In this document: positions 4,324-6,248 of the stretch, in pieces
Numbering within the stretch: position 1 is the stretch's first letter
Layout of the letters: the number at the start of each line of letters is the position of its first letter
DNA from: a virus
Lineage: Duplodnaviria > Heunggongvirae > Uroviricota > Caudoviricetes
Strand: one strand, 5' to 3'
IMG/VR virus record: IMGVR_UViG_2537561823_000007
Span: 1-11,240 of that record
DNA length: 11,240 bases
Notes under the pieces: model-generated
Seen by the model: only the letters and a program-made list of their open reading frames with translations
Told to the model about the DNA's origin: nothing
Databases searched by the model: none
Position numbers and translations under genes: made by a program

Positions 4324-4391
4324 GAGACCAGGCGGGGGCGAAATCCCTCGCCACCTCTGATGTGTCAGGCATCCTCAACGCACCCGCACTT

Positions 4392-4413
4392 AACCCGCTT
4401 CGGCGGGTTTTTT
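4392..4413 (+). terminator. Rho-independent terminator after hokD (left copy of a 23-bp repeat)
   Basis: AACCCGC-TTCG-GCGGGTT hairpin followed by TTTTTT. Confidence 0.8.
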
Positions 4414-4414
4414 A

Positions 4415-4461
4415 TTGGTTGACAAAATTATGAATATGCACCAATATCTTGGTTGACAAAA
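4415..4461 (+). promoter_or_regulatory. Cassette promoter/operator region with tandem 13-bp direct repeat
   Basis: TTGGTTGACAAAA occurs at 4415..4427 and 4449..4461, each containing a consensus -35 hexamer TTGACA. Intervening AATATGCACCAATAT is AT-rich. The -10 element is not confidently placed. Confidence 0.5.
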
Positions 4462-4496
4462 GTCGTTTTTTGCACGGATTAGGCGGAGAAGTGTCT

Positions 4497-5090
4497 ATGC
4501 AGAACCATCCATTCCCTTGGGAGTTCTTTCCTGAGTTAACAGAGGAGCGTTTAACCATTATAGCTGAGGAGTTGCTCAGGATACAGGATATTACTCATGA
4601 GTTATTGTCATCGCCCTATGATGATAATTACACTCGTGGTGGTTGTACATTTGGGCGTCAGCGGCAGGCGTTGCTACAAATGTGCGTACGAAAGACATAT
4701 GACTGGTTAAGACTACTTAATCCTGGCATGGATCTTACGTTTTCAATTGGGAATGTCCCTATTCGTTTCTTTACTGATGACGCAGATAACCCCAAGAAAC
4801 GCGGTTTTTTCAAAAGAAATGATGCTGATCGACTCTTTGAGTCAGAGGAGACTACTCCAACTATGCATCGCTTTGTGGTTGAAAAGCCTGAATTTGAAGG
4901 CGAGGGTGGTAGAGTCATTTTTAATGGCTATAACGTGTTTGGTGAGATCGTGTCAACTTGGACATATGGTGCGGACCGTGTTGTTATGCTGAACTCTGTC
5001 GATGATGTACCTCCAGCACCGGTACCTATCGAACTAGAACCTATCAGTGCGTCTAAGACTGAGAAGGAAAAGAAACAAAATAGCAAATAG
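4497..5090 (+). CDS. Hypothetical protein (197 aa), first gene of the two-gene cassette; candidate toxin/effector partner
   Basis: ATG at 4497 with GGAGAA ribosome-binding site 7 nt upstream; the track's 4449 start is a TTG inside the promoter repeats. No motif I recognise. Stop lies 10 bp before the next gene. Confidence 0.7.
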   Translation: MQNHPFPWEFFPELTEERLTIIAEELLRIQDITHELLSSPYDDNYTRGGCTFGRQRQALLQMCVRKTYDWLRLLNPGMDLTFSIGNVPIRFFTDDADNPKKRGFFKRNDADRLFESEETTPTMHRFVVEKPEFEGEGGRVIFNGYNVFGEIVSTWTYGADRVVMLNSVDDVPPAPVPIELEPISASKTEKEKKQNSK

Positions 5091-5100
5091 TGGGTGAAAT

Positions 5101-6222
5101 GTGTTTAACGGTACTAATTTAAGACTTGCTCGTCTGTATCACGAGCTATCTCTGGAGCAGGTTGCTGAGAAGGTTGAAAAAACACGCCAGTATGTACAGC
5201 GACTGGAGTCTGGTTCAGCTACTCCATCCCCAGAGCTTATAAATAAATTAGCCGAGGTTTTGCGCGTGAAGCCCGCCTTTTTCGAAGGGCAGGAACATTC
5301 TCCTGTTAATGAAGAGATTGTACATTTTCGTAAACGCGCCTCGACAAGGATGTCAACGAAGCTATCAACACTCGCTAAGGCTGAGTTTTATCGTCGTTTT
5401 ATTGATGTATTTGAAGATAACCTTAATTTGTCACCTGTTCGATTTCCTGAATTTCGTGTCCATACACAAGAAGATATCGAGCGAGCGGCAGAAAAATGTC
5501 GTATTGAGTGGGGCTTAGGCTTTGGCCCAATTGAAAATATGACTCGCCTTGCCGAGAAACTTGGGGCGTTTGTTACTTCATTTGACTCCGTTTCGGATGA
5601 AGTAGATGCACTGTCTGTTCCTCTACGAAGGCCTTTTATTGTTCGAAATACAGCTAAAAATTCACCTTGTAGGCAACGCTTTGATATTGCTCATGAGGTT
5701 GCCCATTTGATTCTTCATGAAGGAATTTCTACTGGGGATAGATTAACTGAATCCCAGGCAAACCGTTTTGCCTCTGCTCTGTTGCTTCCCAGAACGTCGA
5801 TGGCGAAATATTTTCCAAGACCTGTGGGGGGGAGGATAAATTGGCAGGGACTAAGCCAATTTAAGTTGACATGGAAAGTAAGTAAGGCTGCCATTGTTTA
5901 CAGGGCTCATCAATTAGGACTTTTGACTGATGAGCAGTACAGAACTGCATTTATGGGGTTGAAACGGAAAGGGGAAGCTATTGATGAAAAAGAAGATTAT
6001 CTAATCCCTCATGAGCGTCCTGAGTTATTCCGTCGGGCTTTATCGTTTTTATTTGAAGAGTTAGGATACGACCCACAGCGTATAGCTGATGAAATGGATA
6101 TAGAAGTGGACATTTTTTATGAGTTAGCAGGAGATGATCTTCCTGCGGTTCATGAACTGCCAGGAAGTGGTGATGTTGTTTCACTACAATCTTACCGAAC
6201 TCTTAGAGGCAAAATTCACTAG
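5101..6222 (+). CDS. Fusion of N-terminal XRE-family HTH domain to ImmA/IrrE-type (COG2856) zinc metallopeptidase domain (373 aa)
   Basis: GTG start at 5101. HTH segment LSLEQVAEKVEKTRQYVQRLESG. Peptidase motif IAHEVAHLILH (HExxH) followed by ESQANRFASALLLP, the hallmark downstream motif of the ImmA/IrrE family. C-terminal helical extension of about 130 aa. Confidence 0.85.
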   Translation: MFNGTNLRLARLYHELSLEQVAEKVEKTRQYVQRLESGSATPSPELINKLAEVLRVKPAFFEGQEHSPVNEEIVHFRKRASTRMSTKLSTLAKAEFYRRFIDVFEDNLNLSPVRFPEFRVHTQEDIERAAEKCRIEWGLGFGPIENMTRLAEKLGAFVTSFDSVSDEVDALSVPLRRPFIVRNTAKNSPCRQRFDIAHEVAHLILHEGISTGDRLTESQANRFASALLLPRTSMAKYFPRPVGGRINWQGLSQFKLTWKVSKAAIVYRAHQLGLLTDEQYRTAFMGLKRKGEAIDEKEDYLIPHERPELFRRALSFLFEELGYDPQRIADEMDIEVDIFYELAGDDLPAVHELPGSGDVVSLQSYRTLRGKIH

Positions 6223-6226
6223 GCAT

Positions 6227-6248
6227 AACCCGCTTCGGCGGGTTTTTT
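6227..6248 (+). terminator. Rho-independent terminator after the cassette (right copy of the 23-bp repeat)
   Basis: Same AACCCGC-TTCG-GCGGGTT hairpin plus TTTTTT, starting 5 bp after the stop codon. Confidence 0.8.

What the first reader, a model, noticed from the sequence alone, without database searches (positions are those of the whole stretch)
4391..6248. Cassette is bracketed by two identical 23-bp copies of the hokD terminator
TAACCCGCTTCGGCGGGTTTTTT occurs at 4391..4413 (after hokD) and again at 6226..6248 (after the peptidase gene), with unrelated sequence on either side of each copy. An exact 23-bp direct repeat flanking a 1.8-kb insert is unlikely by chance. It suggests the cassette was acquired by recombination at, or duplication of, the terminator hairpin, so the module is a discrete swappable unit.
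Basis: seen in the sequence. Interest (0 to 1): 0.55.

Follow-up and report, generated by a model that had tools for sequence, protein, structure and literature searches.

The report
Shared terminator hairpin joins swappable prophage cassettes
A known two-gene anti-phage system (RosmerTA) sits in a prophage between two identical copies of a very common transcription-terminator hairpin, and comparison with hundreds of related sites shows that this hairpin is the exact joint at which such gene cassettes are swapped.

Summary
The 23-mer TAACCCGCTTCGGCGGGTTTTTT lies at 4391-4413 and 6226-6248 with unrelated flanks. The 1.8-kb insert is an intact RosmerTA defence/toxin-antitoxin operon (rmrT 4497-5090, rmrA 5101-6222) in the nin region of a Qin-like lambdoid prophage.

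Strain TUM1880 has one copy of the 23-mer, joined on its left to the window's T1 flank and on its right to the window's T2 flank.

Two corrections apply. First, the second copy is not a duplicate of the hokD terminator. It is the cassette's own terminator, because a homologous cassette in an unrelated phage context is alignable from its -35 box through this hairpin. Second, the hairpin is a ubiquitous canonical C(UUCG)G terminator, found in 92 unrelated phage contexts in a truncated scan.

The copies still matter. Six cassette types at this site (seven if hokD's own module is counted) end in the same hairpin. Left and right segments combine freely, with breakpoints confined to the invariant 15-19 nt.

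Best reading (confidence about 0.6): each promoter-gene-terminator module carries the same terminator, and that terminator serves as a short-homology crossover site. The closest analogue is PeSL-mediated shuffling in T4-type phages. The enzymology is inferred, not shown.

The parts
3570..4096 (+). relB (3570-3809) and relE (3809-4096) type II toxin-antitoxin pair, the module upstream of hokD
   Evidence: Pfam RelB E 1.9e-32 and ParE_toxin E 2.2e-13. Same gene order as K-12 Qin.
4168..4323 (+). hokD, a type I toxin gene. Homology to most other hokD loci starts at about 4154.
   Evidence: Pfam HOK_GEF E 1.2e-23. Annotated hokD in matching genomes.
4391..4413 (+). T1, the terminator hairpin of the hokD module (stem 4392-4398/4403-4409, loop UUCG, U-run)
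   Evidence: It is contiguous with the hokD 3'UTR at all surveyed hokD sites, including empty ones.
4415..4461 (+). Left end of the cassette: tandem TTGGTTGACAAAA repeats (4415-4427, 4449-4461), each followed 17 nt after the TTGACA by a -10-like hexamer. Putative tandem promoters and/or RmrA operator.
   Evidence: Direct repeat D2. Conserved in homologous cassettes in P2-like and other contexts. Not called by the consensus promoter scan, so function is inferred.
4497..5090 (+). rmrT, the RosmerTA toxin (197 aa, no Pfam domain)
   Evidence: PADLOC RmrT PDLC03929 E 5.5e-93 over the full length. PHROG 5786, unknown function.
5101..6222 (+). rmrA, the RosmerTA antitoxin (373 aa; N-terminal HTH_3 plus Peptidase_M78/ImmA-IrrE Zn-peptidase)
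   Evidence: PADLOC RmrA PDLC03943 E 8.2e-201. Pfam HTH_3 E 1.5e-12 and Peptidase_M78 E 8.3e-17.
6226..6248 (+). T2, the cassette's own terminator hairpin, identical to T1. It is the right-hand joint to the prophage backbone.
   Evidence: It lies inside the block homologous to L274 (window 4417-6245). The same cassette plus T2 is joined to two right-flank variants.
6249..6323 (+). Right flank of the site (GTTTTACGTATTCTGGTTTACAAT...), which in empty sites directly follows the single terminator copy
   Evidence: Alignments with the empty sites TUM1880, UPEC129 and O157.
6324..8702 (+). Conserved downstream backbone: small ORF 6324-6596 (PHROG 1212), DUF968/HNH-like 6598-7644, rusA 7657-8016, antiterminator Q 8007-8702

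Best explanation
The site downstream of hokD in Qin-type lambdoid prophages is an accessory-gene hotspot built from promoter-gene(s)-terminator modules. These include hokD itself, three RosmerTA variants, an HTH plus ImmA/IrrE pair, a Doc-type toxin-antitoxin pair and a lipoprotein gene. Each module ends in the same canonical intrinsic terminator, ACCCGC-UUCG-GCGGG-U(n).

In the window, T1 terminates hokD and T2 terminates the RosmerTA operon. Both also insulate neighbouring transcription units. Every module carries the same 15-23 nt, so the hairpin acts as a portable stretch of homology. A crossover between two terminator copies inserts, deletes or re-partners whole modules without damaging genes. 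This could happen between co-resident or co-infecting prophages, or through an excised circle carrying one copy.

Shown: module boundaries, empty sites, and breakpoints confined to the hairpin. Inferred: that the exchange depends on homology, and that it is catalysed by phage Rad52-like (Red-beta/RecT-type) or host RecA recombination. Speculative: the circular intermediate.
For: (1) Empty sites carry one terminator copy, with the T1 left flank and the T2 right flank.
(2) Six different forward-oriented cassettes at this site are bracketed by the hairpin: RosmerTA-1, -2 and -3, HTH+ImmA/IrrE, the lipoprotein gene and the Doc-type pair.
(3) The junction table from 283 hokD sites has 10 left-segment types joined to 37 right-segment clusters. 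All joints lie at ACCCGCTTCGGCGGG. One right flank follows 7 different left segments, and the Doc cassette is joined to at least 7 different right flanks.
(4) The 2 nt before the core covary with the left segment. The U-run length (T4, T5 or T6) and the bases after it covary with the right segment. This confines breakpoints to the invariant 15-19 nt.
(5) T2 belongs to the cassette. Window 4417-6245 aligns with L274 through the hairpin. In contexts without hokD, 10 of 29 RmrA-relative loci and 21 of 32 Doc-relative loci have the same core (at most 1 mismatch) just downstream of the gene, in most cases as the first hairpin after it.
(6) Empty and occupied sites co-occur in one genome, in UMNF18 and in strain 401651.
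(7) Locus L421 has hokD plus its terminator duplicated as a module.
(8) Precedents: terminator/promoter motifs mediate module shuffling and form mini-circles in T4-type phages (PMC2839356). Red-beta-dependent exchange between lambda and Qin occurs on short or diverged homology (PMC3945230).
Against: No recombination was observed directly; everything rests on comparative genomics. A homology of 15-23 bp is at the low end of what Red/RecA-type recombination uses efficiently (own knowledge). No terminator copy lies upstream of the RosmerTA-1 relatives in L274 or in the P2-like loci. The first capture at the cassette's left end therefore needs either an illegitimate join or a donor context that was not found. 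Several alleles (rem, L008-type, L009-type) use the hairpin only as their left joint and have a different right boundary. Selection for intact terminators and insulation could sharpen the apparent junctions. Part of the locus sample was fetched by cassette protein and so is biased towards occupied sites. The pattern-scan sample of 151 sites gives about 19% bracketed cassettes.
Confidence: 0.6

Rival explanations
1. Convergence plus selection, with no role for homology. hokD and the cassette each carry the commonest strong terminator. The cassette was inserted by illegitimate recombination, and only insertions that left both terminators and both transcription units intact survived. The repeat would then be a by-product.
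For: The hairpin arises independently very often: 92 unrelated viral contexts in loci of 30-67% GC, with the exact 23-mer in 18 of them. Cassette families carry it in other contexts, with loop and stem variants that look like descent with modification. In P2-like contexts the joint to the backbone lies a variable 5-20 nt beyond the hairpin.
Against: Six cassettes combined with many right flanks all abut with no spacer or leftover donor sequence. U-run length tracks the right flank and the preceding dinucleotide tracks the left segment. Illegitimate joins filtered by selection should leave variable remnants, as they do in the P2-like contexts.
Confidence: 0.2
2. A structure-directed process. 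The hairpin, or the transcription and replication pausing it causes, attracts breaks, template switching or a structure-specific nuclease. The neighbouring DUF968/HNH-like protein or the RusA resolvase are candidates. The terminator would then be a hotspot because of its structure, not because of shared sequence.
For: The hotspot lies immediately upstream of a DUF968 gene with a weak HNH-like match and of rusA. Arbiol et al. speculate about a protein that recognises the PeSL stem-loop.
Against: A 5-7 bp stem is too short for stable cruciform extrusion (own knowledge). Nothing links DUF968 or RusA to this site. Junction partners always carry the same sequence, not merely any hairpin.
Confidence: 0.08
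3. Target-site duplication or site-specific insertion by a mobile-element enzyme such as a transposase, or by an integron-like or tyrosine/serine recombinase that uses the hairpin as its attachment site.
For: A direct repeat flanks an insert, and a single copy is present at empty sites.
Against: The ends have no terminal inverted repeats. The cassette holds only rmrT and rmrA, and the other cassettes hold only toxin-antitoxin, defence or lipoprotein genes. A repeat of 19-23 bp is far longer than usual target duplications (own knowledge). T2 is inherited with the cassette in other contexts. No integrase gene lies next to the site.
Confidence: 0.02

Closest known systems
PeSL (promoter-early stem-loop) regulatory cassettes of T4-type phages phi1/RB49 (Arbiol et al. 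2010, PMC2839356)
   Same: A repeated terminator stem-loop flanks non-essential genes in a hyperplastic region. Insertions, deletions and replacements have their breakpoints in the repeated motif. The motif insulates transcription, and no dedicated recombinase is present (compared).
   Different: PeSLs are composite motifs of a conserved sigma-70 promoter plus a polyG/polyC stem, specific to those lytic phages. Here only the 15-23 nt terminator is shared and the adjacent promoters differ. The hairpin is a generic C(UUCG)G terminator found across unrelated phages, and the host element is a temperate lambdoid prophage. Mini-circles were shown for PeSLs and not here.
Morons of lambdoid phages (Juhala/Hendrix 2000, as summarised in PMC2839356, plus own knowledge)
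   Same: An autonomous promoter-gene-terminator unit lies between genes that are adjacent in related phages, and it is probably expressed from the prophage.
   Different: In the moron-accretion view the regulatory sequences are not the vehicle of mobility and insertion is illegitimate. Here the terminator is the junction itself, shared by all modules.
RosmerTA anti-phage toxin-antitoxin system (Millman et al. 2022, bioRxiv 10.1101/2022.05.11.491447)
   Same: Two genes: a toxin of unknown function and an antitoxin with a Zn-peptidase domain. Both give full-length PADLOC RmrT/RmrA matches.
   Different: Nothing distinguishes the genes themselves from the family. Activity of this copy was not tested.
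[quoted passage not shown] 2022, PMC9122126; NAR 2026, PMC13586616)
   Same: A fixed position in a temperate phage holds interchangeable defence systems. Homologues of this cassette at about 70% nucleotide identity sit in the P2 hotspot between the replication endonuclease and portal genes.
   Different: This hotspot is a different site, in the nin region of lambdoid prophages. Those papers propose cos-proximal recombination and do not mention terminators as joints.
Botstein/Campbell 'linker' sequences of the modular theory; relaxed homologous recombination by Rad52-like recombinases (De Paepe et al. 2014, PMC3945230)
   Same: Short conserved sequences between modules let homologous recombination swap them. 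Red-beta acts on short or diverged homology, including in Qin.
   Different: The linker here is a functional terminator of only about 19-23 bp. Recombinase dependence was not tested.
Integron gene cassettes (attC hairpins)
   Same: Promoter-proximal arrays of single cassettes, each ending in a hairpin-forming site.
   Different: There is no integrase, attI or attC architecture. The cassettes carry their own promoters, and the hairpin is an RNA terminator.

Membership tests
RosmerTA defence system | Two-gene operon: a toxin (RmrT) next to an antitoxin (RmrA) that carries a Zn-peptidase (M78/ImmA-IrrE) domain, here with an N-terminal HTH | tested here: met
   rmrT is 4497-5090 and rmrA is 5101-6222, 10 nt apart on the same strand. 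Pfam HTH_3 and Peptidase_M78 hit RmrA.
RosmerTA defence system | Full-length match to the family's profile HMMs | tested here: met
   PADLOC RmrT E 5.5e-93 (residues 1-197 of a 198-position model). PADLOC RmrA E 8.2e-201 (1-368 of 370).
RosmerTA defence system | Protection against phage, and toxicity when the antitoxin is absent | not testable with these tools
   Reported only for the family (Millman 2022).
Moron (lambdoid phage accessory unit) | Lies between two genes or segments that are adjacent in related phages | tested here: met
   Empty sites TUM1880, UPEC129 and O157. Empty sites make up 48 of 151 sampled sites.
Moron (lambdoid phage accessory unit) | Own factor-independent terminator | tested here: met
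   The T2 hairpin plus U-run is predicted and is inherited with the cassette in other contexts. Termination itself was not assayed.
Moron (lambdoid phage accessory unit) | Own sigma-70 promoter | tested here: inconclusive
   Tandem TTGACA-N17-(CAATAT/GGATTA) elements are conserved in homologous cassettes. They fall below the consensus-scan threshold.
PeSL-type regulatory-cassette shuffling | Breakpoints of insertions, deletions and replacements coincide with a repeated stem-loop motif that flanks accessory genes | tested here: met
PeSL-type regulatory-cassette shuffling | The motif is a conserved composite of a consensus early promoter and a stem-loop, related in sequence to the phi1/RB49 PeSLs | tested here: not met
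   Only the terminator is shared. Sequences after T1 and T2 differ, and the stem is CCCGC/GCGGG rather than polyG/polyC. The feature is therefore an analogue of PeSLs, not a member.
PeSL-type regulatory-cassette shuffling | Excised mini-circles carrying one motif copy | not testable with these tools
   Needs outward-facing PCR or long-read data.
Integron gene cassette | An attC site, plus an adjacent intI integrase, attI and Pc | tested here: not met
   Neither the window nor L001 holds an integrase near the site. The hairpin is a 7-bp stem with a tetraloop.
Transposable element with target-site duplication | Terminal inverted repeats and a transposase; a short duplication created on insertion | tested here: not met
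   No terminal inverted repeats. The only genes are rmrT and rmrA. The 'duplication' is present at the cassette's end in other contexts.
hok/sok type I toxin-antitoxin locus | Hok/Gef toxin ORF | tested here: met
   Pfam HOK_GEF E 1.2e-23.
hok/sok type I toxin-antitoxin locus | Upstream mok reading frame and Sok antisense RNA | not tested
   Homology to other hokD loci begins only 14 nt upstream of the start codon, at 4154, where relBE sequence takes over.

The most novel reading that the evidence does not exclude
The canonical C(UUCG)G terminator may be a pan-phage universal adaptor. Many promoter-gene-terminator defence and toxin-antitoxin modules end in the same 15-23 nt. They could therefore hop between hotspots of unrelated temperate phages, such as the lambdoid nin region and the P2 hotspots. 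The route would be short-homology recombination or excised one-terminator mini-circles. Terminators would then be the vehicles of moron and defence-system mobility, not passive baggage.
Probability: 0.3. Interest if true: 0.7.

Novelty: new variant of a known kind. Interest (0 to 1): 0.5.

Why it matters
How defence systems and other morons move so precisely between phage hotspots is an open question. The moron-accretion view assumes illegitimate insertion, and recent work on P2/P4 hotspots leaves the mechanism open. This locus is a compact natural experiment. It has one site, at least six cassettes and dozens of left/right combinations, all with breakpoints inside one 15-19 nt terminator core.

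If the terminator is the recombination substrate, three things follow. It would explain clean, gene-preserving swaps of defence systems. It would predict where new cassettes can land. And it can be tested directly by recoding one hairpin. It also bears on annotation: identical terminators flanking a block are a cheap signature of a swappable accessory module.

Tried and rejected
- Target-site duplication or a transposon: no terminal inverted repeats and no transposase.
- Integron-like cassette: no integrase or attC.
- 'T2 is a duplicate of the hokD terminator': rejected, because the cassette homologous to L274 includes the hairpin and relatives in P2-like phages carry it.
- 'The hairpin is specific to this locus': rejected.
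- 'The two copies are pure coincidence': considered unlikely, given the covariation pattern at the junctions.
- The cassette DNA has no match in the phage GenBank collection. In PLSDB it gives only matches of about 70% identity, on phage-like replicons.
- No complete E. coli genome holds the whole window, so the source genome could not be examined.
- A first fuzzy-regex survey timed out and was replaced by a blastn anchor.
- The right-flank TTTACA/TACAAT was considered as a promoter that might pair with the terminator into a PeSL-like composite. The evidence was insufficient.
- An RNA-intermediate (retro-insertion) origin was rejected because the cassettes include their promoters.
- Six hokD sites with at least 3 kb of downstream sequence but no backbone anchor were not inspected.
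Full report
**1. Observation**

TAACCCGCTTCGGCGGGTTTTTT occurs exactly twice in the window, at 4391-4413 and 6226-6248 on the + strand. No further match appears with up to 3 mismatches, and none in 200 shuffles. The repeat extends to 25 of 26 nt, and the sequences on either side of the two copies are unrelated. Each copy is a predicted intrinsic terminator: stem AACCCGC/GCGGGTT, loop UUCG and a U-run, at about -14 kcal/mol.

**2. Context**

The window is the nin-type region of a Qin-like lambdoid prophage. The gene order is:
- relB 3570-3809 and relE 3809-4096
- hokD 4168-4323, then T1
- a two-gene insert, then T2
- a small ORF 6324-6596
- DUF968 6598-7644
- rusA 7657-8016
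- antiterminator Q 8007-8702
- four tRNA genes

This rests.

The insert is a RosmerTA defence/toxin-antitoxin system. Gene A (4497-5090, 197 aa) matches PADLOC RmrT at E 5.5e-93. Gene B (5101-6222, 373 aa, HTH_3 plus Peptidase_M78) matches RmrA at E 8.2e-201. Both matches are full length. Millman et al. defined RosmerTA as a Zn-peptidase antitoxin with a toxin of unknown function, and they could not obtain an rmrA deletion. This cassette is present at 99% identity or more in 23 of 5,426 complete E. coli genomes, many of them ETEC.

**3. The empty-site test**

Strain TUM1880 carries hokD 3'UTR, one copy of the 23-mer, then GTTTTACGTATTCTGGTTTACAATC. Its left flank equals the window's T1 left flank. 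Its right flank equals the window's T2 right flank with 1 mismatch in about 100 nt. UPEC129 and an O157:H7 strain show the same structure with another variant of the right flank. The cassette is therefore a clean presence/absence polymorphism, and its junctions fall at the terminator.

**4. The site is a hotspot, and the hairpin is its joint**

I collected hokD-terminator sites from E. coli genomes, IMG/VR, metagenomes and GTDB genomes.

In 151 sites retrieved by sequence pattern alone:
- 40% carry the rem-type allele of K-12.
- 32% are empty.
- About 19% carry a forward-oriented cassette bracketed by two hairpin copies.

The bracketed cassettes are:
- RosmerTA-1, the window's cassette
- RosmerTA-2 and RosmerTA-3; RosmerTA-2 shares 24% (RmrT) and 43% (RmrA) amino-acid identity with the window's proteins
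- an HTH plus small ImmA/IrrE pair
- a Doc-type toxin-antitoxin pair (59 aa plus 161 aa, with the motif HPFANANKR)
- a 130-aa lipoprotein gene

Across 283 sites, 10 left-segment types are joined to 37 right-segment clusters, and every joint lies at ACCCGCTTCGGCGGG. One right flank (P_R1) follows seven different left segments. The Doc cassette plus its hairpin is joined to at least seven different right flanks. RosmerTA-2 plus its hairpin is joined to rem-type or to P_R-type flanks.

The decisive detail concerns covariation. The two bases before the core covary with the left segment: TA for hokD and RosmerTA-1, AA for Doc and HTH-ImmA, AT for the lipoprotein gene and RosmerTA-2/-3. The U-run length (T4, T5 or T6) and the bases after it covary with the right segment. 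Breakpoints are therefore confined to the invariant 15-19 nt.

In locus L421, hokD plus its terminator is itself duplicated as a module.

Not every allele is bracketed. The rem, L008-type and L009-type alleles use the hairpin only as their left joint and replace the right flank up to about 25 nt further downstream.

**5. Whose terminator is T2?**

T2 does not belong to hokD. Window 4417-6245 aligns at 79.7% identity over 1,834 nt with a RosmerTA cassette in a viral contig without hokD (L274). The alignment runs from the first -35 box (GGTTGACAAAAT) through the hairpin, which there reads ctgAACCCGCTTCGGCGGGTTTatg.

Homologues at about 70% nucleotide identity lie in the hotspot of P2-like elements between the replication endonuclease and portal genes, and in a Klebsiella lambdoid prophage. 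They end in ATCCCGCTTCGGCGGGAT or ATCCCGCTTTGGCGGGAT.

In contexts without hokD, 10 of 29 RmrA-relative loci have the CCCGCTTCGGCGGG core (at most 1 mismatch) directly after the stop codon. The same core lies just downstream of the gene in 21 of 32 Doc-relative loci, usually as the first hairpin and in one group behind another terminator. Other loci show loop variants or compensated stem variants. T2 is thus the cassette's own terminator, inherited with it. The 'hokD terminator' label and the duplication idea are wrong.

**6. The hairpin is ubiquitous**

Among the 120 contigs returned there were 123 matches, and only 25 follow hokD. The other 98 fall into 92 distinct contexts, in loci of 30-67% GC, and 18 of them carry the exact 23-mer.

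This is the classic, exceptionally stable C(UUCG)G tetraloop terminator (own knowledge: Tuerk et al. 1988; d'Aubenton-Carafa et al. 1990). The junction analysis in section 4 nonetheless shows the copies are not irrelevant. Their ubiquity is what lets unrelated modules share a joint.

**7. Mechanism**

Best explanation (confidence 0.6): modules of the form promoter-gene(s)-terminator all end in the same terminator. Crossovers between terminator copies insert, delete or re-partner whole modules.

- Shown: module limits, empty sites, and breakpoints inside the hairpin. Empty and occupied sites also co-reside in one genome, in UMNF18 and in strain 401651.
- Inferred: dependence on homology, and catalysis by phage Rad52-like or host RecA recombination. 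Red-beta-dependent exchange between lambda and Qin on short or diverged homology has been demonstrated (PMC3945230).
- Speculative: a circle carrying one terminator copy that integrates by a single crossover. This would give exactly the T-cassette-T structure seen.

Weak points:
- A homology of 15-23 bp is short.
- RosmerTA-1 relatives outside hokD have no hairpin upstream, so the first capture of the left end is unexplained.
- Selection for intact insulation may sharpen the junctions.

Rival explanations:
- Convergence plus selection, with no role for homology (0.2).
- A structure-directed process, possibly involving the neighbouring DUF968/HNH-like protein or RusA (0.08).
- Target-site duplication or a site-specific recombinase (0.02). 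This is contradicted.

**8. Comparison with what is known**

The cassette is a member of RosmerTA: both profile-HMM matches and the domain architecture are met, and activity is untested. In anatomy it is a textbook moron.

The closest mechanistic analogue is PeSL-mediated modular shuffling in T4-type phages. There, repeated promoter plus stem-loop motifs flank ORFans, carry the indel breakpoints and yield mini-circles (PMC2839356). This locus works like that system but is not a member of it. Only the terminator is shared, the sequence is unrelated to PeSLs, and the host element is a temperate lambdoid prophage.

[quoted passage not shown] Papers on the P2/P4 defence hotspots do not mention terminators as joints. 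I found no description of this hokD-DUF968 hotspot, though the library searched is limited.

**9. Verdict**

The cassette itself is already known. The terminator-as-joint pattern is a new variant of a known kind, namely linker- or PeSL-type module shuffling. Interest is 0.5: it is not categorically new, but it is a clean and directly testable case bearing on how defence systems and morons move.

Noticed in passing
window ~4154 (14 nt upstream of the hokD start codon): A mosaic joint. Window 4154-11240 is 100% identical to several ETEC genomes, while 1-4153 (including relBE) comes from another lineage. No complete E. coli genome among the 5,426 searched covers 80% or more of the window. At other hokD loci the sequence upstream of this point is different.
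   Followed up: partly
window 4415-4427 and 4449-4461: Tandem 13-nt repeat TTGGTTGACAAAA. Each copy has a TGCAC about 12 nt after the repeat, immediately before a -10-like hexamer. The arrangement is conserved in homologous RosmerTA cassettes of P2-like and other phages. These are probably tandem promoters and/or the operator for the RmrA HTH domain.
   Followed up: partly
L007 537-560 and more than 50 IMG/VR loci (L385-L438): In the lipoprotein-cassette allele, T1 has lost two G residues (ACCCGCTTCGGCG--TTTTTT) while T2 is intact. This weakens the hokD terminator, which may allow read-through into the lipoprotein gene. It also shortens the direct repeat, which may stabilise the insertion against deletion.
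   Followed up: no
L421 (about 1,200 nt downstream of the first hokD 3'UTR): A nested array: hokD 3' end, terminator, a 90-nt rem-leader fragment, a second complete hokD, a defective terminator, the lipoprotein gene, a terminator, then the backbone. hokD plus its terminator therefore behaves as a module too.
   Followed up: partly
L133 (Salmonella pRM11060-1) 2580-4330; L135 (Providencia): Homologues of the window's RosmerTA cassette, at about 70% nucleotide identity, occupy the P2-type hotspot between the replication endonuclease and the portal gene on replicons that PLSDB lists as plasmids.
   Followed up: partly
IMG/VR loci L026, L049, L081, L085, L115, L121, L122 and others: In many unrelated viral contigs the same hairpin is followed by a recurrent TTATTGCCYGGAG(N5-9)ATG, that is, a terminator followed by a ribosome-binding site and a start codon. 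In Doc-relative loci L352-L361 the exact 23-mer stands as a second terminator just before a conserved gene whose product begins MAVETYNW. This may mark further terminator-associated insertion points.
   Followed up: no
window 8766-8789 (- strand) and 9540-9557 (+ strand): Further hairpins related to the terminator: AAAACCCGCTTGTGGGCGGGTTTT just after the Q gene, which could terminate in both directions, and GGCTCGCTACGGCGGGCC followed by a U-run downstream of the tRNA cluster.
   Followed up: no
window 8913-9222: A cluster of four tRNA genes (Met-CAT, Lys-TTT, Thr-TGT, Gly-TCC) downstream of Q. The identical region in CP025859 is annotated with only three tRNA genes (Ile, Thr and Gly), with no Met or Lys among them.
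   Followed up: no
window 6265-6272; K-12 locus L002 ~2795-2805: The alleles without a second hairpin have various -10-like hexamers about 45 nt upstream of the small ORF: TACAAT in the rem-type allele, as in the empty-site flank, and different hexamers in the L008- and L009-types. The right boundary of these alleles may sit at a promoter for the ORF-DUF968-rusA-Q block.
   Followed up: no
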